Notes: generated from the letters alone by a model not told the origin. DNA of 64,000 nucleotides from Bacillota bacterium (GCA_021793645.1 JAJYSJ010000003.1:44993-108992), one strand, 5' to 3'; positions 17,477 to 33,075 are shown, counted from the stretch's first letter. Program-made: numbers and translations.

Positions 17477-18685
17477 CTAGTCCGTGCGTCGCGTTACGGT
17501 GCTTCCATCGTGGCGCAGCACGACCCGCTGGCCGGCGACCGCAGTCTCGATCTGCACCGGGGGGCCCCAGAAGGCCTGAATCTCCCCCAGGACCGCTTCG
17601 GCTTCCGGCAGGTCAAGGTCGCGGCCGTCGTGCAGGTGGCGCAGTCGCAGCGTCAGGCCAGGATCCGCCTGCTCGACTTCCACCTGCGGCCGCGATCCGC
17701 TGCTGACCGCAAGCAGGAGCGCCGTACGCACCTCCTCTACGGTCGCCGTCCGCACGGCGCCCTGTCCCGACCGCACGGAAAGACCCAGCCGGTCCACAGC
17801 CCGCTGACTCAAGTGGTTGCGCAGGAACGCAGTGTCGTCCTCGTACGCGCGTACGGCGCAGAGCGTCTGCAAGACCTCGCTCCCAGGCACATCCCCTGGG
17901 GCCCCGCCGTGCTCAGCGGCGATCTCCTCGAGCAGGGCGAGCCCTAAGGCATACGGGTTGAAGCGTCCCGGCGAGAGCGCGACGATCTGGCTATGCAGGG
18001 CGGCGAACTCCAGGTACTCCGCCGGAGGGAGGTCGAGCGCGCGCATGATCCTCAGGTGCCAGAAGGTGGCCCACCCCTCGTTGAGGATCTTCGTGCGCTG
18101 CTGGGCGCGAAAGTACACGCCCTCCTCGCGTACGATCTCGAGGCATTCGCGCTGCCACCCCTCCACCGACCCGCCACGGGCGACGGCACCCAGCACGTCC
18201 TCCGGGCCGTAGGGCGCGCAATACTGTTCGAGGAGGAGCGCGCGATCCAGCGTCTCCTCGAGCAAGCGGGCACCATAGCGCATCCGGTACTCGTGCAGCC
18301 TGCGCCTGTGCAGCGGAAGGCGCCGAGCCGCGCCTTGCGAGAGCCCCTGCATCCAGAGGTTGTGGCGGAAGAAGTCGGCGTGACCGGCTACGTGTGCCCG
18401 GACCGTAACGTCTTCGATCGGCTCGTTGCCCAAAAGCACATAAGCCTGCGGCGGCTCCGTGTTGACGATCACCTCGTAGAAGCGCTGCAACCCCAGATTC
18501 GCCTGGATGCGCATGCGGTGGTAGGCTTTGCCGCGGCTCCAGTGGCCGTAGCGACCAAGAAAGCCATAGGTCGCGAGTACCTGCATCGTCCGCGAAGGCA
18601 CGCGGAAGAACTGGATGCCCTGCGCGTCCAGGCCGAACTCCTGCGCAAGATCCTGGGCGCGCCGGCCGAGCTCATCCCTGCGCAT
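17477..18685 (-). CDS. spoVR: SpoVR family protein
   Basis: RYGHWSRGKAY, YEVIVNTEP, AHVAGHADFFRHN, QRTKILNEGWATFWH motifs; start ATG 18685 overlaps the yhbH 3' end. Confidence 0.92.
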   Translation of the reverse strand: MRRDELGRRAQDLAQEFGLDAQGIQFFRVPSRTMQVLATYGFLGRYGHWSRGKAYHRMRIQANLGLQRFYEVIVNTEPPQAYVLLGNEPIEDVTVRAHVAGHADFFRHNLWMQGLSQGAARRLPLHRRRLHEYRMRYGARLLEETLDRALLLEQYCAPYGPEDVLGAVARGGSVEGWQRECLEIVREEGVYFRAQQRTKILNEGWATFWHLRIMRALDLPPAEYLEFAALHSQIVALSPGRFNPYALGLALLEEIAAEHGGAPGDVPGSEVLQTLCAVRAYEDDTAFLRNHLSQRAVDRLGLSVRSGQGAVRTATVEEVRTALLLAVSSGSRPQVEVEQADPGLTLRLRHLHDGRDLDLPEAEAVLGEIQAFWGPPVQIETAVAGQRVVLRHDGSTVTRRTD

Positions 18686-18905
18686 CGCCGAACAGCGCGT
18701 CGAGGGCGTCCAGCACACCCTGGCGATCGGCGACGCGCAGCGCGCGAAAGTGGGGCGCCTCAACCTCCGAAAGCGCCGTACCGAGCCCCGAGGCGCGGCC
18801 GTGCGGGCGCACCTCGACGTAGGCGAAGAGTTCGCTCGTCTGAAGAATCTCCCGCACGAGGTCGCGAGAAATCCGGTTATCGCTGTCACCCCAATTGTCA
18901 CCATC
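18672..18905 (-). CDS. yhbH: YhbH/YeaH (DUF444) C-terminal segment, separated from its 5' part by the inserted element
   Basis: Encodes DGDNWGDSDNRISRDLVREIL...FAYVEV...DALFGDAQG*, the end of DUF444 proteins. Residues upstream of 18905 in the track ORF come from the element. Confidence 0.88.
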   Translation of the reverse strand, partial: DGDNWGDSDNRISRDLVREILQTSELFAYVEVRPHGRASGLGTALSEVEAPHFRALRVADRQGVLDALDALFGDAQG

Positions 18906-18929
18906 TGGTGAATGATCTTTGGGGTGATT
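18886..18929. repeat. Left attachment junction of the element
   Basis: Host arm ...TCACCCCAATTGTCACCA + TC + T + element arm GGTGAATGATCTTTGGGGTGATT. Confidence 0.85.
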
Positions 18930-18973
18930 GTTTTGGAGATACGCTAACTGGAGAATCGCTTCTCCGTGCGCCA

Positions 18974-19180
18974 TCATTCCCACGCCTCATTTGTGCTCTC
19001 AGGTTCGGTTCTGTCTGCGGGATTTTGATCGGCATAGTCAATCGGTGCGATGCCAAGTTCCTCGTCAGTACAGCGTGCTGTGACGCGGCACGCGATCTCC
19101 ATGTATTGGGCCCATGCCTTCTTGCTGACGTTTCCGTCGCCGATTATGGTCACTCGCACCTTCTTCGCCTCAACGCCCAT
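18974..19180 (-). CDS. Small hypothetical protein at the element end (candidate recombination directionality factor)
   Basis: 68 aa, last ORF before the left junction. Function inferred from position only. Confidence 0.4.
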   Translation of the reverse strand: MGVEAKKVRVTIIGDGNVSKKAWAQYMEIACRVTARCTDEELGIAPIDYADQNPADRTEPESTNEAWE

Positions 19181-19830
19181 GCCTACGCGCGAAGAAGATT
19201 AGTCGTGCCTGTCCACTGCCTCAGCGGCAAGGTCCATATTAATCACCTCAACATTTTGGATTGGATCTCTCTAGCGACCAAGTCGCCGAGTCGCTCAGTC
19301 CTCCGACTGCCTGTAGCGCACCTGCCCGTCACCGATCACACCGAACTGCCGTCCTACTCGACGAGGGCCTGTCGGACAACAAGGCTGTTCGGCGACCCAC
19401 CGCGCAACTTTACCTCGTCGGGCCAACCCGGAGGGGACCAGAAGTGCATGAGCGGTTTGCTCGTCTGCATCGTCAAGAGCGAACGCGAAGAGCGTGTCGC
19501 GGACGTAGACGAAACCCGCGTTGCCGTCAGGCACGCGCGGGTCGAACTGCACTTTCGGATGTCGTCTCAAACTGCCCCGCACCTCTGCTGTGCCTCAGTG
19601 ACCTGTCTGCGCTCAACCTGATTGCCGCCTTGAGGTTCGTGCAGGGCCGAGTGCTGCAGGTGAACGCGGGACAAGAGCACACGCTTAAAACGCGTTCACA
19701 CCTACCGACTGCACCGGAGTTCGCCGGCGCCGGTCTCGAGACGGTCGAACCCGGATAGCTGTCCCTGCAGATAGTCCAGGCTACTAGGCACAGGGGGAGG
19801 GCTCAGGCATTCCCCTGTGCCGTTGAGAGT

Positions 19831-20772
19831 TCAGCTCGCCGCCTCCTTTGGTTGCACGTTGGCCTGACGGCGCTCGATCTCGAGGATGACCTTGTCCGCC
19901 TCCTCCTTGCTCATCGCCGCTGGCCATCCGTAGGTCCTGCCGAGGATATCGTTGGCGATCTCGGTGTCCTTCGCGTAGAGGCTGAGCCCCTGGGCGATCG
20001 CCCACATGCCCTTGCGCTGCTCCGCCATGATTGCCCCGGGCTCCGCCTTGAGGGGCCCCTCCGTGATCCAGAGTTGTTTGCCGTTTGCCTTCGCTTTGTG
20101 GCATGACGTCCGGAGGAGGCCCCTCCGGGTTTCCCGGATCTCGATAGCCAGAGGTACTTGCCGCGGCTCGCGTCGTCTGGCCGGATCTGGCAACCCACTA
20201 TGCGCCCCTCGCGGTCGCGTACCGGGATAAGTAGGCCCGGAGGTCCGCTTGTCAGTCAGGTCGCACCGACCTGATAGAAACCCGGCACTCCTTCTGGCAC
20301 GATGCCGTAAGGGCTCCCGTGGCGTTGTGGGTGCGGTACTGGTTCGCTTCATCTCAGGCAGCGAGAAACCCTGTCGGAGCAGCGCGGCACGGGCGACAGC
20401 CATTCCCGCGCGATCAGCGCTGGGTAGGCTGTTCCGCGCATCGGGGCCCGCCATGCACTCTCGAGGGACAGGCGGCCTCTTAGGTATCGGAGATATTGGA
20501 ATGCCGCCGCGTCCGGTCATGGCGATCGCGTCACGCACGGAGACGTGTTCAATTCGGGCGAGAAAGTCGATGCGTCTCCCTGGGCCCCGCAGGTGAAGCA
20601 CTGCCAGGTCTGGGTTGCGGGAGACGACGAGGTTTGGACGCCCCTGATCATCGTGGAAGGGGCAGGCCCCCACAAGCACCGCGCTGCGGCGCTATAGCTC
20701 TATGCCGTGCCGATGATCTCCTCCACCGATACGAGCGCCTTGGCTTGGGCGACGTTCGTGGGTTTCCTCCTT
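19831..20772 (-). pseudogene. Degraded phage/ICE primase (CHC2 zinc finger plus Toprim-like fragments)
   Basis: GACPFHDD and LWITEGPLKA fragments with frameshifts; start mutated to ACG behind a GGAGG RBS. Confidence 0.6.
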
Positions 20773-20916
20773 AGCCGCCAGACGGCGTGGGATATAGTCG
20801 TGACATCGCCCTTGTCCACCTGGAGCCACGGCGTATAGCATATGAAGGTGAACTGCTCAGGAGGGGCGGACACGCGGATTCGGGTGAAACACACGGCTCA
20901 AATGGAGGTTTGTTTC

Positions 20917-21663
20917 GTGCCGGAGAGTGAACACGCTGACGATCGCTCCCGAAGTGCAGTCATCGGCATCGTCGGAGACTACAGCCCCAGCTATTCGACC
21001 CATCGGATGACGATCGATGCGTTGGGACATGTCCCTTCACCGCTTCCATTCGAGTGGGTGCCGACTGCTACGCTCAAGGAAGATGTCTCCGAGCGGCTCT
21101 CTCGCTACGCGGGACTGTTGATCGCTCCCGGCAGCCCGTATGTCAGCATGGACGGTGCCCTCCGTGCGATCCGGTTCGCTCGTGAGCGCAGGGTGCCGCT
21201 GACTGGAACATGAGGCGGCTTCCAACACGTACTGGTCGAGTAGGCCCGTAACGTTCTTGGTATCAAGGACGCCGATCATGAGGAGTCCAACCCGGCAGCC
21301 CCACAGCTCGCTATAATTGCACTTGCCTGCTCACTTGCCGGACAGGAACATCCGATCAAGCTGGTGCCTGGCTCCAGAGTCCATGCTCTGTACTCCAGCG
21401 AGACGGTCGTCGAACCCTTCTTCTGCAACTACGGCCTCAACCCGGATTATCGGCCCGCTCTGGAAGCGCACGGTCTCGTGTTCAGCGGTGTCGGCGAAGA
21501 GGGAGAAGTCCGGGCTCTTGAGCTTCTCAACCATCCGTTTTTTATCGCCACTCTTTACGTTCCACAAGCCCGTTCCCGGCCCGTGGCACCCCACCCTCTC
21601 ATCAGTGGGTTTGTAGAGGCTGCTCGCCAGTACAACAAAAGATCGATATACCTAGCGGGCTGA
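20917..21663 (+). pseudogene. CTP-synthase-C-terminal-like glutamine amidotransferase with TGA at the catalytic Cys position and a premature TAG
   Basis: One frame: GIVGDY...LIAPGSPY...PLTGT[TGA 21211]GGFQHVLVE[TAG 21241]ARNVLG...FFCNYGLN...HPFFIATLYVPQ; GTG 20917 after GGAGG. Confidence 0.8.
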
Positions 21664-21764
21664 GGTCACAGGATTCCAGGTTGAGAGCATGCTTCTCACC
21701 CGCCACCCTACGGCTGCCAGATTCCCTTTGCCGCCATTCAACTTGTTCCTGGTCAGCGTAGCGC

Positions 21765-21890
21765 GATCATCGTGGAAGGGGCAGGGGCCGACAAGCACCA
21801 CACCGCGCGCTGCACCTCGATCCGTGTTCCGACGATCTCCTCCACCGATACAAGCGCTTTGGCCTGGGCGATGTTCATGGGTTTCCTCCT
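21765..21890 (-). pseudogene. Second primase N-terminal relic, a diverged direct repeat of 20646-20771
   Basis: MNIAQAKALVSVEEIVG... then frameshifted VLVGPCPFHDD; collinear with copy 1. Confidence 0.65.
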
Positions 21891-22233
21891 CTTTCTACGG
21901 AGGCCGGAGTGTCGGCGGCGATGGAGTGGGAGGGAGGCATCGCAATCGCCGCCGCACCCCGTCAGCGTCGACTGGCGTAGGTTCTTGTGCAGCAGCCATC
22001 ACCAGAACTCCTCTTGAAAGATGGCAACGCGCTGCACCCCGGAGAAGGCGTCAAGGGATGGGCCGTGGGCCATGAGAGCACAGCGAGCGCACCCTTGACG
22101 CGGGCGCCGAGGGCGCGGCACCTGTCGCACTGCAGAAAAGGCCCCGGCAAAGCAGAGCGCTTCACCTGGGCGAGTGATGGATTTGTCGGCTTGCCTAATC
22201 GCCATGCGGGACGGGACTGTTCTCTACATCCGT

Positions 22234-22920
22234 CTATTCGTGCGCTGCCCGGACTGCCGTCACCAGGCTGTACCAAGCCATCATCCAAACAAGGGGAATT
22301 CGCAAGGCCCACCCACCGACACTGCCGCTTGAGGGCAGAATTCGGTTCAGTACTACCCCGCTGAGAGTGATCACAAGCCCTGGGATTAGCCAAGCCCAGA
22401 ATCCCGCTCGGAACCGAGCGTTAACAGTCCGAAAAGTCCCCTGAAACCCACTCCTCGCTGTCTCGGCAACTGCCATCCCTGACCACACCGATACGATCAA
22501 CATGGCAACTCCCGCTGCGACACCAGCAAAAGCAGCACCGCCAACGAGTTCAGTGATCGTCAATACAATCCACCCTACAAGCAGGAACGCAAAGAGCTGA
22601 ATCCAAACCATGCCCATCGCGGCGAGCAAGTGCCGTGGCACTGTAGCAACACGCCCATTGTCAAGCGGCAAGGCAACGGCGATCGCAGCCATCGCAATAG
22701 ACAAAGGGTATAGCACAACCTGGCCAACGTCAGACACCACTTGCATCGTGGACCCATTCGCAGACGTTACCGCCAAAGATCCGGCGTAATCAAACCATGC
22801 AATAAGCGGCAAAACAACAACAATGTCCGCGCCAATCAAAACCCAAAAAGTATAAGAACGCATCAGCTTAATTATTGAGTTTTTGTAGGCCGCCAAATTC
22901 CCACCTCTATTTGAAAACAT
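22234..22920 (-). CDS. Hypothetical multi-pass membrane protein
   Basis: 228 aa, about 6 hydrophobic segments; visibly more AT-rich than the flanks. Confidence 0.55.
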   Translation of the reverse strand: MFSNRGGNLAAYKNSIIKLMRSYTFWVLIGADIVVVLPLIAWFDYAGSLAVTSANGSTMQVVSDVGQVVLYPLSIAMAAIAVALPLDNGRVATVPRHLLAAMGMVWIQLFAFLLVGWIVLTITELVGGAAFAGVAAGVAMLIVSVWSGMAVAETARSGFQGTFRTVNARFRAGFWAWLIPGLVITLSGVVLNRILPSSGSVGGWALRIPLVWMMAWYSLVTAVRAAHE

Positions 22921-23353
22921 CGATAAGTTTCGGAGGCGTACGATCTGCTAATCGAATCTGAAATGCGACTGCCAGCATAAACTTACTTTCTAGTTCGACA
23001 TAGACCTGCCAGAGCCCTCCAGGACGGGCGCCTGCAGCCCCTATCGTCCAAGGCGCCAGAACGGAAGCGATGACACCCATCTCCCGGTCTGGAACCAAGT
23101 AGTCACGCAAAACGACGGGATTAAGGTTAGAGTCAAGTTGGTGGCAGAGCATGGCCGACATCTGCATCTTCTGCGGCGAGCACGAGGGGCTTACGGAGTT
23201 CAAGGGGAAGATCGTGTGCCGTTCCTGCGTCGAAACCGTCAGATCGACGTCGAAGAGCTGGTTGACGCCATCTCGATGAGCGGACGCGGATGTGGACACT
23301 TCCAAGTGCATGGCCAGCATCTTCACCGTAAGTGTGCCGTGGGACGTTGCCAT
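22907..23353 (-). CDS. Hypothetical protein
   Basis: 148-aa ORF overlapping the start of the membrane-protein gene; no motif recognised. Confidence 0.35.
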   Translation of the reverse strand: MATSHGTLTVKMLAMHLEVSTSASAHRDGVNQLFDVDLTVSTQERHTIFPLNSVSPSCSPQKMQMSAMLCHQLDSNLNPVVLRDYLVPDREMGVIASVLAPWTIGAAGARPGGLWQVYVELESKFMLAVAFQIRLADRTPPKLIDVFK

Positions 23354-23593
23354 GTGTTGCGATCCGACCGCCCGGGCCCTAGGCTCTAGCCCTCACCGTG
23401 GAGGCGTAAACCGGACCGCCAAATTACCCATCTCGGAAGTACTAGAGCCAGAATTTCCATATTTCGTCGTACGCTGACGATGGTTCAGGCCACGCCCTGA
23501 GTAAACGGTGAGGGCCCGTCAGAACGGGCTTTCTTGGCACCTGCCTGCACTCCCCCTTTGGGCACACTGTTGTCCAGAGGGGGGTGCCCTACG

Positions 23594-25852
23594 GTGAAGC
23601 AAGACGTGTTTGTGGGGATCGACGTCGGATCCACCACGGTGAAAGTCGCGGGAGTGGACAGCGCCGGCGAACCGGTGGGAGAGCCCGTTTACTTGCGGCA
23701 CGATACCTATGAGACCCCTCTCTCGACGTTGAAGCAGGCCCTGTCGCAGTTCCTGGCGGCCGGTGACTGGCACATTGCCGGGGTGGGTACCACGGGCAGC
23801 GGGCTGGAGCTCACCCGCAGCCTGCTCGGCGCCGACCTCAGCCGCACCGAGATCATCGCCCACGCTACAGGGGTAACCCAGCTCCTGCATTTGGGCCTAG
23901 TGCGTGATGCGGCAGGCCGGGTGCTGGACCAGGTGGGCACACTGCTGGAGATCGGCGGGCAGGACTCCAAGGTGATTATTTTCGGCCCGGACGGTCTCCC
24001 CAGCTTCTTTCACATGAACAGCATCTGTTCCGCTGGCACCGGCGAGTTCCTGAAGCAGTTGGCGGACGAGGCCGGCATCGACGTGTCCGAGTTCGGTGCG
24101 CTCGCATTGCGGGCGACGGCGCCCGTCCGCATCGACTCCACATGCACGGTTTTCTCCCGCCGTGACTTCCGGCATCTTACGCAGAAGGGCGTGCCGTTGG
24201 AGGATCGCCTGATGAGCGTTTGTCACGCGCTGGTCCGCAACTTCCTGCGCACCGTTGTGCCGGAAGGGGCGGTGCGCCCCCCTGTGTTCTTCCAGGGCGG
24301 GGTGGCCTACAACCAGGGCGTGCGGCTGGCGTTCGAGCACCAGCTTGGCCTGCCCGTTGTGGTGCCGCCGATGCACGGCGTGGTGGGGGCGCTCGGCATG
24401 GCCTGGCTAGCCCGCCAGCAGATGTCCGGGCAGGCCGCCGAGCTCCCCATGGCCACCGCGTTTCGGGATGACTTCTCCACCCTCCAGTTCGAAAGCCGGG
24501 TTCGTTATTGCCATGGGTGCCGCAACGCCTGTGAGTTGGCCCAGCCCCTGGTGGTGCGGGAAGGTAGGACCAATGTCCTGGAAGTCGTGGGCGGGCGGTG
24601 TGAGGGGTGTCAAAACCCGGCGAATGTTCAGGCGGAGCCTCAGTCCATCGCCGCCTTTGCCGTGCCCGTGTTGCGAGAGCCTCTGCCGCTCCACCTGCAC
24701 CCGCACGTGACTGGGCTCAGCGGCCCATCCCACCGCTCTGCTTCCCACCGGTCTTCGGCCGGGCAATACTTCGCTGGGTTGGACGGCGGCTCTCGCGGCA
24801 CCAAATATGCCCTGATTCAGATCTGCGGCACCGATTTGGAGATCGTGGCCGTTGGCTCCCTGAGTACCGGCGGCGACGCCATTCAAGCCTGCCTGCAGGC
24901 CTTGGAACAGTTGCACCAGGTCCTGCCTCCGCAGGCCGTTCTCGCCGGGGTCGGCACCACCGGCAGCGCCGGGGAACTGTTCCGGGATATCATCACCACC
25001 CGGGACAAGGAAACCTCGGACTACCGCTCCACCGAGATCCTCGCTCACTATGCCTGGGCCAGCCACCGGGTACCCCAGGTGGGCACCGTAATCGACATCG
25101 GGGGCAATGACGCCAAGATCATCACAGTCAAGCCGGGTGGTCTGGACTTCGCCATGAACGATAAGTGCGCCGCCGGTACCGGCGCCTTCCTGGAAGCCGT
25201 GGCTAGCCGTTTTCACATCCCCGTGGAGGAGTACGCCCGGGTAGCCCTATCGGCTAGTACCCCGGCACGCGTTGCCGGGCGCTGTGCGGTCTTTGGTGAG
25301 TCTGATGTGGTCCACAAGGCCAGGATGGGCTTTGCCACCCCGGACCTGCTCCTGGGGGTGGCCTACTCCATCTGCCGTACCTACCTGACCGATGTGGGGC
25401 GCGGCCGGCCCTTGCGGGTGCCCATTGTGGCCCAGGGCGGGGCCTTCCTGAACCAGTCGGTCGAGGAGGCCTTTCGACGCACGCTAGGCCTCGGGGCGGT
25501 GGAATTCCTAGTGGCGGAGGATGCGCGTCAGGTCGTGGGGGCCGGTGCCCTCGGGGCCGCACTGCTGGCCAAAGGCATGTACGAGCAGGGGTACGACACC
25601 GCCTTCAAGGGCTTTGACAGGATCGCGGCCGGCACCTACCGGACGGTTTCCACTCAGTGCCGGCACACCCGCTGTCACCGCACCTGCGATGGCGTTGTCG
25701 TCCTGTTGGAAAACGATCTGCCCATAGCAGGGTACCGTTCCATCGACTGCCCGCTGGACCTATTCGACGGTATGACGAAAGGCGAGGCAGAAAAGTCGCA
25801 CATGGCTACCCTATTGGAATCGAACGAACACAGGAGGGTCATCGGATCATGA
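23594..25852 (+). CDS. Acyl-CoA dehydratase activase (BadF/BadG/BcrA/BcrD ATPase, two ASKHA modules)
   Basis: GIDVGSTTVK, EIGGQDSK, CSAGTG, CTVF; second module GLDGGSRGTK, DIGGNDAK, MNDKCAAGTG, RCAVF; CHGCRNAC Cys cluster. GTG 23594. Confidence 0.88.
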   Translation: MKQDVFVGIDVGSTTVKVAGVDSAGEPVGEPVYLRHDTYETPLSTLKQALSQFLAAGDWHIAGVGTTGSGLELTRSLLGADLSRTEIIAHATGVTQLLHLGLVRDAAGRVLDQVGTLLEIGGQDSKVIIFGPDGLPSFFHMNSICSAGTGEFLKQLADEAGIDVSEFGALALRATAPVRIDSTCTVFSRRDFRHLTQKGVPLEDRLMSVCHALVRNFLRTVVPEGAVRPPVFFQGGVAYNQGVRLAFEHQLGLPVVVPPMHGVVGALGMAWLARQQMSGQAAELPMATAFRDDFSTLQFESRVRYCHGCRNACELAQPLVVREGRTNVLEVVGGRCEGCQNPANVQAEPQSIAAFAVPVLREPLPLHLHPHVTGLSGPSHRSASHRSSAGQYFAGLDGGSRGTKYALIQICGTDLEIVAVGSLSTGGDAIQACLQALEQLHQVLPPQAVLAGVGTTGSAGELFRDIITTRDKETSDYRSTEILAHYAWASHRVPQVGTVIDIGGNDAKIITVKPGGLDFAMNDKCAAGTGAFLEAVASRFHIPVEEYARVALSASTPARVAGRCAVFGESDVVHKARMGFATPDLLLGVAYSICRTYLTDVGRGRPLRVPIVAQGGAFLNQSVEEAFRRTLGLGAVEFLVAEDARQVVGAGALGAALLAKGMYEQGYDTAFKGFDRIAAGTYRTVSTQCRHTRCHRTCDGVVVLLENDLPIAGYRSIDCPLDLFDGMTKGEAEKSHMATLLESNEHRRVIGS

Positions 25853-28476
25853 GCCGTGGGGAGTCTGATCTGACCACAAGGGATGTGCAGGGCAAACAAC
25901 CACCCATGCCGCCGGGCCGTGACCGGCGACCCAAGGTGGGGGTCGTGAGGGCCTTTACCGGCCACTACGAATCAGTACGAGTCCTGCATCGGTTCCTGCA
26001 CCATGCGGGCCTGGAGGTGATCACCAGCCAGGTCAGCACAGCACCCATCATCGAAGCCGGAACTGCGCTGGCCAGTGCCGACTTCTGCTTGCCGCTGCGC
26101 GTCTACGTAGGACACGTCTACACACTGAGCCGTGAGCACCCGGATCTGGACGCCATCCTGGCGCCGAACGTCTGGACAGACAAGGGGGGAGCAGCCACCT
26201 GCTCTAAGTATCGTGACATCGGCGGCGTCGCCATTCGATCACTTGGAGGCATGATCCCGTACCTGCAAGGCCTCCGTGCCCAGGATGGGCATTCCCTTCC
26301 CCGCTTTATCCGTCCAAATATCCAATCCGTCACCTACCGATCCCTGTGCAATGTGGCCTTTGATGTATATGCCGAAATCATCGGGCTGGCACCGTGGTCC
26401 CGCATCGGCGTGTTCCTATCGGAAGACTTGCGCCGTCGATGGACTCCACATCTGGCGCATGTGGAGACGGCTTTCGCCCGCGCTTGGCGCGAGGTGATGG
26501 AACGCCCAGTGGATCGCCTCAGCGCCCTGCTCGCGGATGACGCCCGTCCCCGGGTAGCTGTGGTCGGCCGTCGCTATCTGCTCGATGATCCGGCCCTGAC
26601 CGCAGACCTGAAGCCTTGGTTCCGACGTCGCGGCGCCACGGTCCTGACCGCTTCCGATGTGCCCTGGGAACAACTGGCTGGTCTGTACCGTCAAGCGGAG
26701 GGTTTCTACGACAGTCATCGGGAAGGCCAAGCCTTTATTGACTGGGCCGCGGACAAGGTGGACGGGTTCATAACCTTGGGGTCCTTCGGCTGCCATCCCG
26801 ATGCCTTCCAGGTAGACTATCTGGCGGAGTACGCCCGCGCCAAGGGCAAACCCGCCTGGACCTTCCGATTCGATGAGACGGTAGGCACCACCGGTTTCCA
26901 AACCCGCTTCGAGACACTCTACGGGTTCCTGGAAGGCCAGCGGGACCGGCGCCTGGGTCAGCGACTGTCCAAGGAGGAACATGTGCCACCCCACAATCCA
27001 GTGAAGATACTTCCGGACCGCATGGCGAACGGCAGTGGGCAGCCCCCCTTGCGCCCCCTGTTTGTCTGGCCCTACATGGGCGAGGAGCTTAACCTGTTAC
27101 TCGAAGAGGTCTTTGTCTACCTGGGACTGCAGGATTACGCCTGCCCGCCCAAACCGATCGACGGCACGACCCTGGAATTGGGGGGGCGCCGCTACGCGGA
27201 GACGTGTTCACCGTTTGCCTGTGCGACCGGCAGCCTGATGCAGGGTGTTCAGGCCGCAGTCCGCGAGCTGCGCGACGAGGCCCGAAGGCATGGCCAACCG
27301 CCAGAACCGCGGCGTATCCTCGCACTGATGATCCAGGGCGAAGGCCCCTGTACCTTCGGCTGGTATGCCATCGCCCAGAACCGCCATCTGCCTTCTGATC
27401 TGGCTGCCGATCTGACGGACGGGCATACCCTTGAACTACTGACCATGGGCCTAACCGATCCCGCAGACTTCTTCCGTCAATTGGGCCAGCTCGGCGACAC
27501 CCGGCGCCTAGACCCCGTGGTGCGCTACGTAGAGGCACGGGTGACCGGGGACTGGTCACGACTCCCACGAGCAGCACGGCTGAACCTCCAGTTCAGGTTT
27601 CATCTCGCCCTCCGTTCCCTGCTCGCCCCGGTGTGGGCCAAGCTGGCCGCGGCGGAGGATGTGCGGGCCCGCTCCCTGTTGGTGCGGGCCCACGAACTGG
27701 CACCTGGCAGCACGGCTGCCGCCTACCGGGAGTGCCTGGGACTGCTGCGCGGCGCCCACACCGGGGCGGCGATTCGGCGCACCAGGGATCGCTGTATGGC
27801 CAAGTTGCAAGCCGTCCCCCAGGACCGCACCCCAAAACCGCGCGTGGTTGCCGTCGGTGAGATCTATGTAGCCCTTACCTCATTCGCCAACCGCGGCGTG
27901 ATTGAGAAGCTGTTGGGACGGGATGGGATTGAGGTGGTGGAAGCGACCACCCTCAGCGAGTTCATCCATCGCTCCGTCTGGGAAACGCGGCGGCGCAGTC
28001 TGGCGAACCATCCCTGGATTCGGCCGTTGCGGGACCGATTGGAGGCGCGCAATATCCACTGGCTGAGGCAACGGCCCTACGACCTTCGGGCTCGTCCCTT
28101 CCTGGAGTGGGAGGTCGGCGGCGATGCCATGCCCGGGGTTGGTGCTGCCCGCGCCCTGTTGGAACAGGACTGCGACGGCATCATTCACGTTTATCCGTTC
28201 AAGTGCATGCCCGAGGGTATCGCCAAGGACGCCTACAAGGAACTGAGCGACCTGTATGGCGTTCGCTACCTGGGCCTCTCCTTCGACAAGGAACTGGATA
28301 TCGAACGGGTCAAGACCGAGGTGGCCACCTTCGCCGCCCTGCTGCGGAACCAGGTCTCCAACCGGCAGGGCTGGCTGAACCGCCTCCGGCTGACCCGCCG
28401 GCGCCGGGCCCTGGGGCGCAAGGTGGACCGGCTGTATCAAAGACGAAGGGCGAACACCAGTCGCCCTGAAGCATGA
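25849..28476 (+). CDS. CoA-activase-associated DUF2229 / 2-hydroxyacyl-CoA dehydratase-like fusion protein
   Basis: ADFCLPLRVYVGHV, TCSK, SFGCHPD, FDETVG, ETCSPF, GPCTFG, PFKCMPE, FDKE motifs; ATGA overlap with the activase stop. Confidence 0.78.
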   Translation: MSRGESDLTTRDVQGKQPPMPPGRDRRPKVGVVRAFTGHYESVRVLHRFLHHAGLEVITSQVSTAPIIEAGTALASADFCLPLRVYVGHVYTLSREHPDLDAILAPNVWTDKGGAATCSKYRDIGGVAIRSLGGMIPYLQGLRAQDGHSLPRFIRPNIQSVTYRSLCNVAFDVYAEIIGLAPWSRIGVFLSEDLRRRWTPHLAHVETAFARAWREVMERPVDRLSALLADDARPRVAVVGRRYLLDDPALTADLKPWFRRRGATVLTASDVPWEQLAGLYRQAEGFYDSHREGQAFIDWAADKVDGFITLGSFGCHPDAFQVDYLAEYARAKGKPAWTFRFDETVGTTGFQTRFETLYGFLEGQRDRRLGQRLSKEEHVPPHNPVKILPDRMANGSGQPPLRPLFVWPYMGEELNLLLEEVFVYLGLQDYACPPKPIDGTTLELGGRRYAETCSPFACATGSLMQGVQAAVRELRDEARRHGQPPEPRRILALMIQGEGPCTFGWYAIAQNRHLPSDLAADLTDGHTLELLTMGLTDPADFFRQLGQLGDTRRLDPVVRYVEARVTGDWSRLPRAARLNLQFRFHLALRSLLAPVWAKLAAAEDVRARSLLVRAHELAPGSTAAAYRECLGLLRGAHTGAAIRRTRDRCMAKLQAVPQDRTPKPRVVAVGEIYVALTSFANRGVIEKLLGRDGIEVVEATTLSEFIHRSVWETRRRSLANHPWIRPLRDRLEARNIHWLRQRPYDLRARPFLEWEVGGDAMPGVGAARALLEQDCDGIIHVYPFKCMPEGIAKDAYKELSDLYGVRYLGLSFDKELDIERVKTEVATFAALLRNQVSNRQGWLNRLRLTRRRRALGRKVDRLYQRRRANTSRPEA

Positions 28477-28487
28477 GAGGAGGTCCC

Positions 28488-28739
28488 TCACCTATCGCTC
28501 AGCGGTAGAACTGCTTCAGCGCGTCCACTTCGAGGTTTACGGTCGCGGGCTTCACGCTTGCCGCACGCCGGCGGTGCCATTCTGCAGGGTCGATCGGGGT
28601 CACGGGGTCCCATCCATCTCCTGCGAGATCCACCGCCTGCACGGGTGACCGCCTGCATGCAGACGGTCACCGTTCGCAGACTGCGGCCTGCGGCGTGCAA
28701 GTGATCGCGGAAGAGCGACAGAGCCTCGTCGTTCGTCAC
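28488..28739 (-). pseudogene. Tyrosine-integrase N-terminal (SAM-like) relic, copy A
   Basis: FRDHLHAAGRSLRTV... then frameshifted VKPATVNLEVDALKQFYR*; no catalytic domain follows. Confidence 0.6.
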
Positions 28740-28824
28740 AGTGTCACCTTCTCACCAATAGCGACAGGAGGCGGACACGCTGCCTCCTCGCGTGGTGGAT
28801 TTGCTTGATGACAGTTTAGTGCCT

Positions 28825-28853
28825 CACCCGATTTCGGTCGCCCACATATGTTA
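28825..28853 (+). promoter_or_regulatory. Candidate sigma-K-type promoter of the peptidoglycan-binding gene
   Basis: CACC-N16-CATATGTTA fits the B. subtilis sigma-K consensus mACm-N16-CATAnnnTA. Confidence 0.5.
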
Positions 28854-28882
28854 TGTCGACGACCGGATAGGAGGGGAACCGT

Positions 28883-29704
28883 TTGGCACTTTTCGAAACG
28901 ACCTTTCCTCCTTACGTCCCCTTCGGCAGCCGACTACTCAGGCTGCAGACGCCGAACCTGCGTGGCACTGACGTTGCGGTGCTTCAGGGGATCTACAACC
29001 TGATGCTGCAGGTGATGAACCCCCCGCAGGGACCGATGGGCAGCCCGATCACACTAGACGGCATCTTCGGACCACAGACTCGCCAGGCAGTGCTCAACAT
29101 CCAAAGCTACTTCGGCCTCTCGGTCGATGGCATCGCTGGGCCACAAACCTACTTTGTCTTTGGGCAAGGCGTAGGACCCAACACCACCTACGGCGGGCCA
29201 GTGTACGGTAGCCGACAGCTTATGCAGGGAACATCCGGGGGTGACGTCAAGATCCTGCAGAATCGCCTGAACTGCTTCCGATATGCTGGCTTGATTGGCC
29301 AGCCGGCAACCGGCTTCTTCGACGCTGCCACCGCCCAGGCTGTCCTGGCCTTCAAGCAAGACGCCGCCTCGAATGGCGACACCGGCTTCCCGAACAACGC
29401 CATCGCAGGCTTCGGGTTCTACGATGCATCGTGGATCTACACCTTCGCCGGAGGCCGCGGGATCTTCACTGGCCGCAACGGGTTCGACGTCGTCTTCATT
29501 CAGGTGATGATGGCGGAGTTCGGTCGCCTCTACAAAGGCCCAATCGACGGTTACTATGGCGCGGCTACTACAGCGGCAGTAAGGGCGTTCCAAGCCAGCT
29601 CGGGGATTATCGTTGACGGTGTCGTCGGCCCGCAGACGTTCTATCAGATCGGATTGCGCAACGACATCTTCGCGCCGATCCCCATGCCGATTTTTACCTT
29701 TTGA
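28883..29704 (+). CDS. Peptidoglycan-binding domain protein (three PG_binding_1-like repeats, no signal peptide)
   Basis: G(T/F)DV..LQ...DG.(F/Y)G..T..AV..(I/F)Q-type repeats; TTG start after AGGAGGGG. Confidence 0.85.
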   Translation: MALFETTFPPYVPFGSRLLRLQTPNLRGTDVAVLQGIYNLMLQVMNPPQGPMGSPITLDGIFGPQTRQAVLNIQSYFGLSVDGIAGPQTYFVFGQGVGPNTTYGGPVYGSRQLMQGTSGGDVKILQNRLNCFRYAGLIGQPATGFFDAATAQAVLAFKQDAASNGDTGFPNNAIAGFGFYDASWIYTFAGGRGIFTGRNGFDVVFIQVMMAEFGRLYKGPIDGYYGAATTAAVRAFQASSGIIVDGVVGPQTFYQIGLRNDIFAPIPMPIFTF

Positions 29705-29750
29705 CTCCCACGCTCCGTCTCACAGTTGGGTTTTCCCCCGCCTAGTCTTT

Positions 29751-29775
29751 GGCCGCACTTCAGGTGCGGCCTTTC
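29751..29775 (+). terminator. Putative intrinsic terminator after the PG-binding gene
   Basis: GGCCGCAC-TTCAG-GTGCGGCC followed by TTTCC. Confidence 0.5.
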
Positions 29776-29866
29776 CACATTCATCTGCAGGATCGATCTT
29801 GCCGCAGCGACGTAACTGCGGCTTAACCGAGAGAATGTCGAGGCCACGATGTAGCGCCGAGGCTTA

Positions 29867-30686
29867 GTGGGATACTACGCGGATCAGGAGTGGTGTCTTT
29901 CTCTTCGTGACCTTCGCAACCCACTCAGTGAACCCACCAAGGGCTTGACGCGCACTGTGGCTTTGGACCCAAGCGTGCTGTCCTCCTTCGTCAAGGGGCG
30001 CCAAAAAGCAATGAGCACCCCGGTCAGTGAAGATTCTGCGCCAGGATCTCATGGAACAGAAAAAGATGTGGGGCAACTCCGCAACTCGACCCGGCATGGT
30101 ACGGCTGTTGGTACACGGACGAGATGTGGCTATGAGTGACCCGCAAACGCGTTCCAGTATTTTGAACCAGAACCTGAGCGAGCAACGCCTTATGTGGGCG
30201 GATTCCGCCACCAGCCGCAAGATGACCATATTCGCCGTGGACGGGCGTAAGGCCGCGATCAAGAATCCCGTGACAGCCAAACCGATACTGCAGCAGAATT
30301 TGAACGAACAGCGGGTTGCATTGGCTTCCCCGGACGTCGCGACTGGAATGTCGGACGTCTCAATAAGGTTGACGCAGCATGCGCTGACCAACCCCGAGCA
30401 GGCCAAGACCTTGCGCCATACCACGATGTCCGTTATGGAGGGAATCTCCAAGGACCCGAAGGAACGGCGGCGCATACTGGCACTTATGTCGCTTAATATG
30501 GAGGATCCCAGCATGAAGGCAAAGCTACTCTCCATGATGAAGTCGATGATGGCGAGCAGTTCCTCGGGCGCGTCGGGAGGGTCGGGCGGCAGTGCCGCCT
30601 CCAAACCCAGGCGCTCACCACTCGTCCAGCTCCGGTTCCACTTCAGGCCAGACAGGCCGGTAGAGCCTGAAGCGGGTGGGATTTAG
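29867..30686 (+). pseudogene. Helical 42-aa repeat protein, GerD-like, probably frameshifted near 30025
   Basis: Repeats IL(R/N/Q)Q(D/N)L.EQ...G(R)..A...P; the repeat register continues upstream in another frame (VKGRQKAMSTP); Met-rich end EDPSMKAKLLSMMKSMM. GerD resemblance is from memory only. Confidence 0.4.
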
Positions 30687-31405
30687 TCGGCGACCTCCGA
30701 TCCATCCAGGGGTGGGTCGATCCCCTCCACAAGTTGCAAAAGTTTCGGCAAGGTGGCCTCGGCTACCATTTCGCCTTCTGCGACACAACGCTGGATCTGC
30801 CGGAGGTCCAGCAGGCTGCATCCACCAACTGCAGGCTGGATGAGAAGGTCCGCCTGTACCCGTACGTCCGCCTCGAGCTTGTCCATCATCACGCTAAAGC
30901 TTCGACGGATTGTCCCGACCAGGCTCCGTGTACTCTTCGTCGGCTCTGCCACGAAACGAGATGCCGACGCGCGCACGAGATCGGTCGCGGTGATGAGGAC
31001 GCGTAGAGGCAGGTCCTCGAGCGAGCCTCAACGGGTGACGACACGCAAGAAACGGAGGAAGCGCCGCGGAATGCCGACTGACGCGCCAGCCGATGATCTC
31101 CTGCCAGCGAATAGAACGGCTTGGCGTTCGATATCTCCAAGGTCGTCGCCGAGCACACAGAGAGCCGCGACCAGCGCACCTACGCTCGATCCCGCGACGA
31201 TGTCGAACTCGACGCCATGACGCCTGAGGACCTAGAGTACCCCAAGGTGCGCAGCGCACCGCACGCCGCCACCACTCAGCGCGAGCCCGAACACGCTTCG
31301 CATCACCTGACCGGTTTGCTATGCCATCCAGCCTAAATCATGCTCTTCCTTCACTGAGGTCGTACTTGCCCTTCAGGCAGATGCCGGGAGCGTGCGGTCG
31401 GACCC

Positions 31406-31620
31406 GCTAACACCAGCCCCTTCCCCATGTCCGGCGGTAGAACGGCCGCAGGGCGTCCACCTCGAGGTTCATGGTCGCAGGCTTTGCGTTCGTCGCACGC
31501 AGCCGCCGCCACTCGGCGAGGTCGATCGGGGTGACGGAGGTCCAGCCGTCGTTGGTCCATGGCCTTAAGGGCACGGGTGATCGCACAGGTTAAATCGCCT
31601 CGCACTCCAGAGGTGGAGGG
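31406..31620 (-). pseudogene. Tyrosine-integrase N-terminal relic, copy B
   Basis: Encodes WTSVTPIDLAEWRRLRATNAKPATMNLEVDALRPFYR; 31434-31547 is collinear with 28502-28615. Confidence 0.6.
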
Positions 31621-31688
31621 CCCGGTCTTGTGCAGTCTGCAGGAGGCGGAGGGGCCGTTCTCGTACAATCAGGTGGAGGTGGCAACGA

Positions 31689-33032
31689 CTGCGCGCAGGC
31701 CTTTATATACGGGTATCGACTGAAGAGCAGGCGCGGGAGGGGTTCTCCGTCGCCGCGCAGCGCGAACGCTTGGAGGCTTATGCGCTCTCGCAGGGATGGC
31801 AGGTCGCCAACGTCTACGCGGACGAGGGTATGTCGGGCAAGAATCTCGAGCGCGAGGCCGTACAGCGTCTAATCGGCGATGTCCACGCCGCCCTCCTAGA
31901 TGTGGTGCTCGTGTGGCGTTTGGACCGCCTCTCACGGCGCCAGCGCGACGTCCTGCACCTGATCGAGGATGTCTTCACTCCGCGTGGCGTGGGCTTTCGC
32001 AGCGCGACAGAGAGCTTTGATACGACAAGCCCCGCCGGCATGGCCATGGTTGGCATGTTGGCCGTGTTCGCGCAGCTTGAACGGGCCACGATCATTGAGC
32101 GTAGCACGATGGGCTATCGCCAGCGCCTCTCGCAAGGCAAATGGGCCGGGGCGGCGCCTTACGGCTATCGCTACGGCCAGGGTGGCGTCCTGGAGCCAGA
32201 CGCCGACACAGTAGGATGGGTGCGCCTCATCTATCGGCAGGCGATCGACGGGGCATCACTGGATCGCATCGTGGCATGGCTCACCGCGGAAGGAGCACCG
32301 CCTCCCTTTGGCCGACGCTACTGGCATCCGAGCACGGTGAACATCATCCTTCATAATCGTGCTTACCTCGGTGAGCGCCGCACTCGAGATGGCTGGATGA
32401 AGTCCGGGCATACGGCACTCCTGGATGAGCAGACGTGGCTCGACGCTCAGGACGCCATCGAGGGCAGGCGCAAGGGGCCCGGTCGGCCACGGCGCGGTGA
32501 AGTGTCACCCTACCTCTTGACCGGCGTTCTCTTTTGCGGCGAGTGCGGAAGCAGGATGGTTGGCCACAAGAGCTCGAATGGTTTGCGGTACTACATCTGT
32601 GATCGGATCAAGCGCAGGGGACATCGCTGCGGTCCTGGCTATGTGCGTGTCGAGCGACTTGACGAGGCGGTAGCGGCGGCGTTCATTCGGGCGGTACACT
32701 CCCAGGACACGCCCGCGCCGCGCCGGCGCCGCGACGAGTTCGCGGCCATCGACGCCAAGATCGCTCGCTTAGTCGCCGCCATCGAAGACGGCACGTTGCC
32801 ACACGATGTCGTGCGCGACCGCCTCGATCAGCTTCAGCGGCAGAGGGCGCAGGCTCTGCGTGAGCGGGCACCCTCTGCTACCACGGCGGAGCAGCGACGC
32901 ACAATGGCTGCTGGTCTGCCGAGGGTCTGGGCGGCGGCGACGCATGAGGAGCGACGGGAGATCCTTCAGGCGCTAATCGAGCGCATCGACGTTGACGCCA
33001 GCGGAAATCCGCTTTTGAGGCTGCATGGGTGA
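31689..33032 (+). CDS. Large serine recombinase (SpoIVCA/CisA-like), 447 aa if it starts at CTG 31689
   Basis: Frame is open upstream of the track ORF: LRAGLYIRVSTEEQAREGFS (catalytic Ser 31716-31718); D-RLSR, APYGY recombinase domain, zinc ribbon LFCGECG...YYIC...HRC. GGAGGT RBS 8 nt before the CTG. Confidence 0.93.
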   Translation: MRAGLYIRVSTEEQAREGFSVAAQRERLEAYALSQGWQVANVYADEGMSGKNLEREAVQRLIGDVHAALLDVVLVWRLDRLSRRQRDVLHLIEDVFTPRGVGFRSATESFDTTSPAGMAMVGMLAVFAQLERATIIERSTMGYRQRLSQGKWAGAAPYGYRYGQGGVLEPDADTVGWVRLIYRQAIDGASLDRIVAWLTAEGAPPPFGRRYWHPSTVNIILHNRAYLGERRTRDGWMKSGHTALLDEQTWLDAQDAIEGRRKGPGRPRRGEVSPYLLTGVLFCGECGSRMVGHKSSNGLRYYICDRIKRRGHRCGPGYVRVERLDEAVAAAFIRAVHSQDTPAPRRRRDEFAAIDAKIARLVAAIEDGTLPHDVVRDRLDQLQRQRAQALRERAPSATTAEQRRTMAAGLPRVWAAATHEERREILQALIERIDVDASGNPLLRLHG

Positions 33033-33075
33033 ATCACCCCAAAGAGCATTTACCCTCCGTAAAGTGCAATACCAG
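33032..33075. repeat. Right attachment junction of the element
   Basis: Element arm AATCACCCCAAAGAGCATTTACC + C + TC + host arm CGTAAAGTGCAATACCAG. Confidence 0.85.

What the first reader, a model, noticed from the sequence alone, without database searches (positions are those of the whole stretch)
18886..33057. att-site geometry fixes the crossover and shows an attP/attB offset
Seen: the predicted circle junction is AATCACCCCAAAGAGCATTTACC-c-TC-t-GGTGAATGATCTTTGGGGTGATT, a 23-bp inverted repeat (21/23) centred on TC. The motif TCACCCCAA also occurs in the yhbH coding arm (18886-18894), 18 nt from the core versus 22 nt in the element arm. Known: large serine integrases cut at a central dinucleotide, and their zinc-domain motif sits about 5 bp closer to the core in attB than in attP. 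Inference: the integrase recognises a motif embedded in the conserved DGDNWGD codons, so this could be a new orthogonal att pair.
Basis: partly seen in the sequence, partly recalled or inferred. Interest (0 to 1): 0.7.

Follow-up and report, generated by a model that had tools for sequence, protein, structure and literature searches.

The report
Serine-integrase element splitting sporulation gene yhbH
A 14-kb mobile element carrying a large serine integrase sits inside the sporulation gene yhbH of an uncultured spore-forming bacterium, and its attachment sites have the textbook geometry for this enzyme family, so it is a clean new example of a known kind, not a new mechanism.

Summary
Window 18906-33057 (14,152 bp) is an insertion in yhbH (DUF444). 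Removing it restores a 356-aa ORF that is colinear with an uninterrupted 88%-identical yhbH from another metagenome.

The element ends form a 21/23 inverted repeat centred on TC. TC is the only dinucleotide shared by attL and attR at the junction. TCACCCCAA occurs exactly three times in 64 kb, all in the att sites.

Related elements (integrases 71-84% identical, different cargo) occupy the same yhbH codon: six lineages give an attR and three an attL. Every element arm has TCACCCC + 15 nt + TC. Every host B arm has TC[A/G]CCCC + 11 nt + TC. The offset is therefore a conserved 4 bp. That equals the shift seen in SPbeta integrase structures; LI and phiC31 integrases shift 5 bp.

In the window the B half-site equals the P' half-site minus 4 bp. 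The other host half-site (B') lacks the distal motif.

The integrase has all large-serine-recombinase modules and is at most 36% identical to isolated-phage integrases. There are no phage genes.

yhbH was already listed as an integration target in spore formers. Verdict: reader supported; new member of a known kind. Recombination activity and sporulation-coupled excision are inferred, not shown.

The parts
17477..18685 (-). spoVR; the ATG at 18685 overlaps the 3' end of yhbH by 14 nt
   Evidence: Pfam SpoVR E=9e-67. The start MRRDELGRRAQ matches gene 2 of the empty-site locus L006.
18672..18905 (-). yhbH 3' fragment (77 codons plus stop), beginning with the GA of the Asp codon in DGDNWGD
   Evidence: Reconstruction and translation. 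Colinear with intact L006.
18880..18929 (.). attL: B arm 18880-18903, crossover TC 18904-18905, P' arm 18906-18929
   Evidence: Contigs in runs X2 and X4 cross this junction at 100% identity.
18886..18894 (+). Distal (zinc-ribbon-type) motif TCACCCCAA in the host B arm, 10-18 nt outside the core
   Evidence: Related B arms read TC[A/G]CCCCA[A/G] at the same distance.
18919..18927 (-). The same motif in the P' arm, 14-22 nt outside the core
18974..19180 (-). 68-aa ORF beside attL; candidate recombination directionality factor
   Evidence: It is the only non-integrase gene shared with related elements (L002, L098, L099). It has a 40%-identical homologue in the early operon of the related phage L094. 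No Pfam, PHROG or NCBIfam hit.
23534..25852 (+). Cargo: double BcrAD/BadFG-type acyl-CoA dehydratase activase ATPase
   Evidence: Pfam PF01869 E=3e-60; NCBIfam TIGR00241 258 bits
25657..28476 (+). Cargo: DUF2229 / HGD-D-like protein. The true start is probably downstream of the overlap with the previous gene.
   Evidence: Pfam PF09989 E=1e-16
28883..29704 (+). Cargo: protein with three PG_binding_1 repeats
   Evidence: Pfam PF01471 E=7e-37
31434..31550 (+). Copy of a 117-nt direct repeat; the partner is at 28502-28618 (77% identity). The pair brackets a 2.95-kb segment that is absent from a variant in run X1.
31675..31682 (+). Shine-Dalgarno GGAGGTGG, 6 nt upstream of the CTG start
31689..33032 (+). 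Large serine integrase, 447 aa, CTG start. Catalytic Ser10 lies in YIRVST. The zinc-ribbon cysteines are C283, C286, C304 and C314.
   Evidence: Pfam Resolvase + Recombinase + Zn_ribbon_recom. No ATG, GTG or TTG lies upstream of the Ser in frame. Homologues are 447 aa. AF2 pLDDT 82.8; the best PDB folds are Bxb1, SPbeta, phiC31 and LI integrases.
33032..33081 (.). attR: P arm 33032-33055 (motif 33034-33042), crossover TC 33056-33057, B' arm 33058-33081
33058..33894 (-). yhbH 5' fragment (279 codons). As it stands it reads on into the P arm and stops at the TGA inside GGGGTGA (33034-33036).
   Evidence: Truncated YhbH proteins ending ...LHFT[D/E]... occur in five lineages.

Best explanation
What it is. 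Window 18906-33057 is a 14,152-bp non-phage integrative element. It was inserted into the coding sequence of yhbH by its own large serine integrase (31689-33032).

How it integrated.
- Integration was a single crossover at the non-palindromic dinucleotide TC. One partner was a 50-bp attP, an imperfect inverted repeat that abuts the integrase stop codon. The other was an attB that lies on the codons T-D-G-D-N-W-G-D.
- Each element half-site has two modules. The proximal module is G2, A6, T8, G9. The distal module is TTGGGGTGA, 14-22 nt outside the core.
- The host B half-site carries the same distal module 4 bp nearer the core, at 10-18. This is the arrangement that places the zinc-ribbon/coiled-coil domain on the opposite DNA face in attB and makes attP x attB the permitted pairing.

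What is shown and what is inferred.
- Shown in silico: excision at TC would restore yhbH exactly.
- Inferred by analogy with skin, SPbeta and gin: excision happens in the sporulating mother cell. It would be helped by the conserved 68-aa ORF next to attL acting as directionality factor. Integrase levels would be kept low by the CTG start codon.
For: Insertion and crossover.
- The junction, the inverted repeat and the motif are present as described.
- The reconstructed YhbH is 356 aa. It is colinear, without indels, with an intact 88%-identical YhbH in L006.
- DGDNW is present in about 109 of 120 YhbH homologues. Five truncated homologues all end at ...LHFT.

Related elements at the same site.
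- They sit at the identical position, with integrases 71-84% identical and unrelated cargo. attR is seen in L001, L003, L007, L008 and L097; attL in L002 and L098.
- Nine P-type half-sites give the consensus .g.t.A.TG....TtGGGGtGa. Four B half-sites have TGGGG.GA 4 bp closer to the core. TC is invariant at the core.
- In the window, B = TGGTGA-CAA-TTGGGGTGA and P' = TGGTGA-ATGATCT-TTGGGGTGA. The best alignment needs a gap of exactly 4.

Integrase.
- All large-serine-recombinase (LSR) domains are present.
- The top structural matches are full-length Bxb1, SPbeta and phiC31 integrases and the LI integrase C-terminal domain.

Literature.
- LI integrase has a 9-bp ZD motif at 16-24 in attP and 11-19 in attB.
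- SPbeta integrase DBD2 binds 4 bp closer in attB.

Host and element type.
- The host shows spore-former synteny: Spore_YtfJ, SpoVR and PrkA. MAG relatives are titled 'Bacillota bacterium'.
- The element has no phage-family hits.
Against: - No recombination product (attP circle junction or empty attB) was found for this element in the four metagenome runs that hold it. Only low-depth contigs were available.
- The B' half-site has no distal motif at any offset, so half of attB recognition is unexplained.
- The offset is 4 bp, not the 5 bp of LI and phiC31.
- The integrase lacks a canonical start codon.
- No sigma-70-type promoter was found upstream of the integrase or of the small ORF, and no sporulation promoter could be assigned.
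- Related insertions can decay: L097 retains only an integrase remnant.
Confidence: 0.8

Rival explanations
1. The element is a fossil. It integrated as described but is now immobile, because the integrase is not translated (no ATG/GTG/TTG start) or no directionality factor exists. yhbH would then be permanently split in this lineage.
For: There is no canonical start codon before the catalytic serine. L097 shows that such insertions do decay while keeping the P arm. No excision junction appears in the contigs of four runs.
Against: - The 447-codon frame is intact and is preceded by a strong SD 6 nt from the CTG.
- The same CTG is kept in a second lineage (L003, 76-78% identical). The other four lineages use GTG or TTG.
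- The inverted repeat is still 21/23.
- The att geometry is conserved in all lineages.
- Cargo turnover at a fixed site implies repeated mobility.
Confidence: 0.15
2. The shared TCACCCCAA is not a recognition motif. It would be a chance match, or host sequence captured into the element ends by an old aberrant excision, and the integrase reads other bases.
For: Only one of the two attB half-sites has it. An occupied site (L098) and the empty site (L006) have TCGCCCC instead.
Against: - The chance probability is about 2e-5.
- The 7-mer is invariant at a fixed 15-nt spacing in six non-coding P arms, while neighbouring bases vary.
- It is present symmetrically in P and P'.
- Its length and position match the ZD motifs of LI integrase, and the 4-bp shift matches SPbeta integrase.
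Confidence: 0.1
3. The insertion is a transposon flanked by a 9-bp target-site duplication (TCACCCCAA at 18886 and 33034), or the crossover lies at the CC three bases to the left.
For: The 9-mer is a direct repeat near both ends. CC is also shared by attL (18901-18902) and attR (33053-33054).
Against: - Joining at the 9-mer gives ...HFTEGKCSLG* rather than an intact gene. It also deletes TTGTCACCA, which the empty site L006 retains.
- The only DDE transposase seen is in L007, not in the window.
- CC is 3 bp off the symmetry centre, would replace the conserved Asp by Glu, and is not conserved in L097 or L002.
Confidence: 0.02

Closest known systems
SPbeta prophage integrase SprA with RDF SprB, inserted in spsM of Bacillus subtilis
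   Same: A large serine integrase splits a mother-cell sporulation gene, and excision restores the gene. In the cryo-EM structures the second DNA-binding domain sits 4 bp closer to the centre on attB half-sites, the same offset as here (PMC11722253; PMC4191935). It is the second-best structural match (9dxh).
   Different: SPbeta is an active 134-kb phage; this is a 14-kb element without phage genes. The sequence identity is about 18%. The target gene, att sequences and host clade differ (high-GC uncultured Bacillota here).
gin element (GirC integrase with GirX RDF) in gerE of Bacillus cereus ATCC 10987
   Same: A non-prophage gene-intervening element in a sporulation gene. It is moved by a serine recombinase with a small directionality factor, and its att sites are inverted repeats around a central dinucleotide (PMC5595907).
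   Different: gin is 28.6 kb and carries three recombinase genes. It targets gerE. Its excision during sporulation has been shown experimentally; nothing has been shown here.
Listeria phage A118 / LI integrase att sites
   Same: A similar-sized enzyme (452 aa against 447 aa) and a 50-bp attP. Both have a continuous 9-bp distal ZD motif. The attB copy sits at positions 11-19 in LI numbering, exactly as here (PMC3783163).
   Different: In LI the attP motif is at 16-24 (a 5-bp shift); here it is at 15-23 (a 4-bp shift). Both LI attB half-sites carry the motif; here only B does. Sequence similarity is too low to reach E<=1e-5 in the PDB sequence search.
Earlier reports of insertions in yhbH in spore formers (Abe et al. 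2013, as cited in bioRxiv 10.1101/2021.11.22.469490)
   Same: [quoted passage not shown]
   Different: I could not read the primary paper. Those cases were in cultured species, and no att geometry or integrase family is available to compare.
XisF, the fdxN-element excision recombinase of Anabaena
   Same: A full-length NCBIfam match (residues 6-436). XisF is a developmental excision by a large serine recombinase.
   Different: The score of 117 bits is far below the 375-bit cut-off. XisF is from a different phylum and has a different target gene.

Membership tests
Large serine recombinase (serine integrase) | N-terminal resolvase-type catalytic domain with the nucleophilic serine in a Y-x-R-V-S-T motif | tested here: met
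   Pfam PF00239 E=6e-30. YIRVST with S10 is invariant in 26 homologues. The catalytic domain is 45-47% identical to that of TP901-1 integrase.
Large serine recombinase (serine integrase) | Recombinase domain followed by a zinc-ribbon domain with four cysteines | tested here: met
   PF07508 E=8e-15 and PF13408 E=1e-16. C283 and C304 are invariant; C286 and C314 are at least 90% conserved.
Large serine recombinase (serine integrase) | Coiled-coil motif inserted in the zinc-ribbon domain | tested here: met
   The AF2 model (pLDDT 82.8) has paired long helices 346-366 and 372-393 after the ribbon. The best PDB folds are full-length Bxb1, SPbeta and phiC31 integrases. This is a prediction, not a solved structure.
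Large serine recombinase (serine integrase) | attP of about 50 bp, an imperfect inverted repeat around a non-palindromic central dinucleotide that is identical in attB | tested here: met
   The attP is 50 bp with 21/23 arms and a TC centre. TC is the only dinucleotide shared at the attL and attR junctions and is invariant in nine related junctions.
Large serine recombinase (serine integrase) | Distal (ZD) motif 4-5 bp nearer the centre in attB half-sites than in attP half-sites | tested here: inconclusive
   Met for the B half-site in four hosts, with a 4-bp shift. Not met for B', which has no distal motif. Binding itself was not tested.
Large serine recombinase (serine integrase) | Catalyses unidirectional attP x attB recombination; attL x attR needs a directionality factor | not testable with these tools
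   No junction reads were found in the available contigs. There is a candidate 68-aa RDF only.
Sporulation gene-intervening element (skin / SPbeta / vfbin / gin type) | Inserted inside the coding sequence of a mother-cell sporulation gene of an endospore former | tested here: inconclusive
   The target's best match is TIGR02877 spore_yhbH, full length at 225 bits, below the 468-bit cut-off. Spore_YtfJ, SpoVR and PrkA are neighbours. yhbH lies near a SpoIIID-bound region in the B. subtilis mother-cell study (PMC517825). The host is uncultured and sporulation has not been observed.
Sporulation gene-intervening element (skin / SPbeta / vfbin / gin type) | Precise excision reconstitutes the intact gene | tested here: met
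   In silico only: deleting 18906-33057 gives a 356-aa ORF colinear with intact L006.
Sporulation gene-intervening element (skin / SPbeta / vfbin / gin type) | Excision occurs during sporulation in the mother cell | not testable with these tools
   No culture and no RNA or time-course data. No promoter could be assigned.
Prophage | Phage structural, lysis or replication genes | tested here: not met
   No meaningful PHROG hit for ten element ORFs. No megablast match in the phage or plasmid collections. Integrase relatives at 51-56% identity do sit in phage genomes.
DDE transposon with target-site duplication | A transposase gene and a duplicated target whose removal restores the site | tested here: not met
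   The window element has no transposase. Removing one copy of the 9-bp repeat does not restore yhbH.

The most novel reading that the evidence does not exclude
The yhbH elements are a domesticated clade of cargo-swapping, non-phage serine-integrase cassettes. The cassette is the integrase, attP and a 68-aa factor. It would act as a developmental switch for the overlapping yhbH-spoVR gene pair in uncultured high-GC Bacillota. Integrase dosage would be held down by obligatory non-ATG (even CTG) start codons. attB would be 'split-modular': one half-site is read only through the distal zinc-ribbon motif and the other only through the proximal recombinase-domain motif.
Probability: 0.3. Interest if true: 0.55.

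Novelty: new member of a known kind. Interest (0 to 1): 0.35.

Why it matters
It adds a well-defined attP/attB pair, with a TC core and 50-bp and roughly 40-bp sites, to the serine-integrase toolbox. The enzyme is far from any characterised one, and natural variation across the related lineages already shows which positions are constrained.

It also gives a natural example of the rule that an attB half-site is an attP half-site with 4 bp removed between its two modules. The comparison with the SPbeta integrase structures makes this directly testable.

Biologically, it extends sporulation-gene-intervening elements to uncultured high-GC Bacillota from mine drainage and aquifers. None of this overturns current understanding.

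Tried and rejected
- Excision products. I looked in four public runs that hold the sequence. Only low-depth Logan contigs were available. There was no 18905->33058 joint and no circle joint; the listed joints had 21-24-nt sides and are spurious.
- JGI metagenome scan with an integrase alignment. The patterns chosen were generic (RVSTEEQA), so it returned 80 distant recombinases. None of them sits next to yhbH.
- IMG/VR. A scan for an attP pattern and a scan for integrase relatives found nothing close.
- Genome collection. It yielded only two MAGs with close integrases.
- attP of the related phages. L096 has a plausible 50-bp inverted repeat directly after the integrase stop. In L094 I could not identify attP.
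- Right end of L002. It does not show the expected P arm or TC and lies at a contig end. This is left unexplained.
- Promoters and families. No sigma-70 promoter scan hit was found upstream of the integrase or the small ORF. The small ORF and several cargo ORFs had no Pfam, PHROG or NCBIfam hit.
- Rejected models. The transposon/target-site-duplication reading and a crossover at CC were both rejected.


Full report
1. THE OBSERVATION

- attL: ...GCTG-TCACCCCAA-TTGTCACCA|TC|T-GGTGAATGATCTTTGGGGTGATT, with TC at 18904-18905.
- attR: AATCACCCCAAAGAGCATTTACC-C|TC|CGTAAAGTGCAATACC, with TC at 33056-33057.

Arms 33032-33054 and 18907-18929 are 21/23 complementary. The repeat finder recovered them independently (pair I4). 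At these fixed positions the chance probability is about 2e-10, and an unrestricted search of the 14.6 kb expects 0.02 such pairs.

TCACCCCAA has exactly three exact copies in the window on both strands, at 18886(+), 33034(+) and 18919(-). All three are in the att sites, against 0.38 expected. Its outer T is 18 nt from the core in the yhbH arm and 22 nt in both element arms.

2. IT IS AN INSERTION IN yhbH, AND THE CROSSOVER IS TC

On the minus strand, 33894-33058 encodes the first 279 codons of a DUF444/YhbH protein, and 18905-18672 encodes the last 77 codons. Joining them at TC gives a 356-aa ORF reading ...VLVLHFT-DGDNWGDSDN....

Evidence that this reconstruction is correct:
- A JGI metagenome contig (L006) encodes an uninterrupted YhbH of the same length at 88% identity. 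Its DNA is colinear with my reconstructed attB across the junction, without any indel.
- The reconstructed protein's best NCBIfam match is spore_yhbH over its full length, at 225 bits, below the equivalog cut-off.
- DGDNW is present in about 109 of the 120 best YhbH homologues. Five truncated homologues all end at ...LHFT.

Evidence that the crossover is TC:
- In the window, the base left of TC is A in attL (host) and C in attR (element). The base right of TC is T in attL (element) and C in attR (host). TC is therefore the only shared dinucleotide.
- TC lies at the exact symmetry centre of the 50-bp repeat.
- The alternative shared CC, 3 bp to the left, is off-centre and would turn the conserved Asp into Glu. 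It is not conserved in L097 or L002.
- Reading the 9-bp direct repeat as a transposon target duplication fails. It yields ...HFTEGKCSLG* and removes TTGTCACCA, which the empty site keeps.

3. THE ELEMENT

The element is 14,152 bp, with 62% GC against 65% for the window.

The integrase:
- Its frame has no ATG, GTG or TTG upstream of the catalytic serine.
- The only sensible start is CTG at 31689, 6 nt after GGAGGTGG. It gives 447 aa beginning (M)RAGLYIRVSTEEQ, the same length and N-terminus as its homologues.
- It has Resolvase, Recombinase and Zn_ribbon_recom domains.
- An AlphaFold model (pLDDT 82.8) shows the catalytic domain, the long helix E, the recombinase domain, the ribbon and a helical hairpin at 346-393. 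The best PDB matches are full-length Bxb1, SPbeta and phiC31 integrases and the LI integrase C-terminal domain.
- No isolated phage encodes a relative above 36% identity.

The cargo:
- a double BcrAD/BadFG-type activase ATPase;
- a DUF2229/HGD-D-like protein;
- a protein with three PG_binding_1 repeats;
- several ORFs without family hits.

Ten ORFs gave no meaningful PHROG hit, and the DNA has no megablast match in the phage or plasmid collections. The element is therefore not a prophage.

4. RELATIVES FIX THE GEOMETRY

Integrases 71-84% identical sit at the same yhbH codon in other assemblies. Most share the Spore_YtfJ-SNF2-panC-yhbH synteny.
- attR is seen in L001, L003/4/5/11, L007, L008/9/10/101 and L097.
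- attL is seen in L002 and L098.
- Two of the assemblies are MAGs titled 'Bacillota bacterium'.
- The runs that hold the window's sequence are aquifer, mine-drainage and tailings metagenomes.

Cargo differs completely between lineages. It includes arginase/aminotransferase/aldehyde dehydrogenase genes, an acetyl-CoA-synthetase-type gene, a chlorite-dismutase-like gene and a DDE transposase. Only the integrase and one small ORF are shared.

Reading all half-sites outward from the core:
- Nine P-type arms give .g.t.A.TG....TtGGGGtGa. The distal GGGGTGA is at 16-22 in eight of the nine (GGGGGGT in the L002 P' arm), and the intervening bases vary freely even though the sequence is non-coding.
- Four B arms give .GG.GACAAcTGGGG.GA, with the same distal block at 12-18.
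- The offset is therefore 4 bp in every lineage, and TC is invariant.
- In the window, B is TGGTGA-CAA-TTGGGGTGA and P' is TGGTGA-ATGATCT-TTGGGGTGA. The proximal 6 bp and the distal 9 bp are identical, with 4 bp removed between them. A gap scan peaks sharply at 4, with 9/12 matches against at most 6/12 at other gaps.
- The motif is not absolutely fixed in hosts. The empty site L006 and the occupied site L098 both have TCGCCCC, a synonymous GGC codon.
- The B' arm (.GT.AA.TGCAg) shares the proximal A6, T8 and G9 with P-type arms but has no distal motif. The B arm lacks T8 and G9. The two attB half-sites therefore each show one module.

5. COMPARISON WITH ESTABLISHED KNOWLEDGE

- For LI/A118 integrase, the zinc-ribbon domain reads a continuous 9-bp motif at half-site positions 16-24 of attP and 11-19 of attB. 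That is a 5-bp shift, which puts the coiled-coil on the other DNA face (PMC3783163).
- phiC31 integrase also shifts 5 bp.
- SPbeta integrase shifts 4 bp in cryo-EM structures (PMC11722253).
- In LI numbering, where position 1 is the core base, the motif here is at 15-23 in attP and 11-19 in attB.

6. LIKELY BIOLOGY (INFERRED)

Elements that split mother-cell sporulation genes and excise during sporulation are known: skin, SPbeta, vfbin, vrin, the non-phage gin, and yin in yabG. A preprint citing Abe et al. [quoted passage not shown]

Here spoVR starts 14 nt inside the end of yhbH, so the insertion also separates spoVR from whatever lies upstream of yhbH.

The 68-aa ORF at 18974-19180(-) is the only other gene shared with related elements. 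It has a 40%-identical homologue beside cro-like genes in the early operon of phage L094, which carries a 56%-identical integrase. That makes it the best candidate directionality factor.

All six yhbH-clade integrases start with CTG, GTG or TTG. The two phage relatives start with ATG. This suggests deliberately weak translation.

None of this is demonstrated. No attP or attB junction was seen in the contigs of the four runs, although contigs in X2 and X4 confirm attL at 100% identity. No promoter could be assigned.

7. VERDICT

- This is a new member of a known kind: a serine-integrase gene-intervening element with a canonical attP/attB architecture, in a target gene already reported for other spore formers.
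- Interest is moderate to low. The value lies in a well-constrained new att pair and a neat natural illustration of half-site modularity.

Noticed in passing
window 31675-31691; L003 9878; L001, L002, L007, L008 integrase starts: The integrase has no ATG, GTG or TTG before its catalytic serine and must start at CTG 31689, after the SD GGAGGTGG. A second lineage (L003) keeps the same CTG. The other four yhbH-clade integrases use GTG or TTG. The two phage relatives (L094, L096) use ATG.
   Followed up: partly
window 18974-19180 (-); L002 7979-8185; L098 1140-1421; L099 1390-1578; L094 8415-8582: A 68-aa ORF next to attL is the only non-integrase gene shared among related elements. It has a homologue in the early (cro-side) operon of a phage with a 56%-identical integrase. 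It has no family hit. It is a candidate recombination directionality factor.
   Followed up: partly
window 28502-28618 and 31434-31550; joint 28552->31504 in run X1: A 117-nt direct repeat (77% identity) brackets the PG-binding gene and its neighbours. A contig in an aquifer metagenome skips this 2.95-kb segment, so a shorter variant of the element exists.
   Followed up: partly
window 23170-28840: In run X1 the activase and DUF2229 cargo genes are matched by contigs at 200-300x depth and 90-95% identity. The rest of the element is at 2-15x. Close homologues of the cargo therefore live in a much more abundant organism of the same aquifer.
   Followed up: no
L097 4100-4400: This is a sixth lineage. 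Its P arm and crossover are intact, but the integrase is reduced to a C-terminal remnant. It is a decayed insertion that leaves yhbH permanently truncated.
   Followed up: partly
L002 11347-11380: The sequence after the integrase stop begins like a P arm (TCACC...TATCC) but then reads AAAACTACG instead of TC plus yhbH, and the contig ends there. The attL of the same contig is canonical. This is unexplained; it may be an assembly end or a rearranged attR.
   Followed up: partly
window 18672-18685: spoVR (ATG 18685, minus strand) overlaps the last 14 nt of yhbH, as in the empty-site locus L006. The insertion therefore also cuts spoVR off from the yhbH side of the operon.
   Followed up: partly
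window 20646-20771 and 21765-21890: Direct repeats 86-89% identical lie 1119 bp apart and end in a reverse-strand Shine-Dalgarno sequence. They look like duplicated 5' ends of two minus-strand cargo genes.
   Followed up: no
window 31638-31669; same region in L002, L007, L008: A conserved block, GCAGGA - about 19 nt - (C)GTAC, lies upstream of the integrase start in four lineages. It is not a sigma-70 consensus match. It may be a promoter or an operator.
   Followed up: no
L096 10792-10841: A phage with a 51%-identical integrase has a 50-bp imperfect inverted repeat (GTACGTCGC...GCAACGTAC) starting 3 nt after the integrase stop. This is the same attP placement and size as here, with a different distal motif.
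   Followed up: partly
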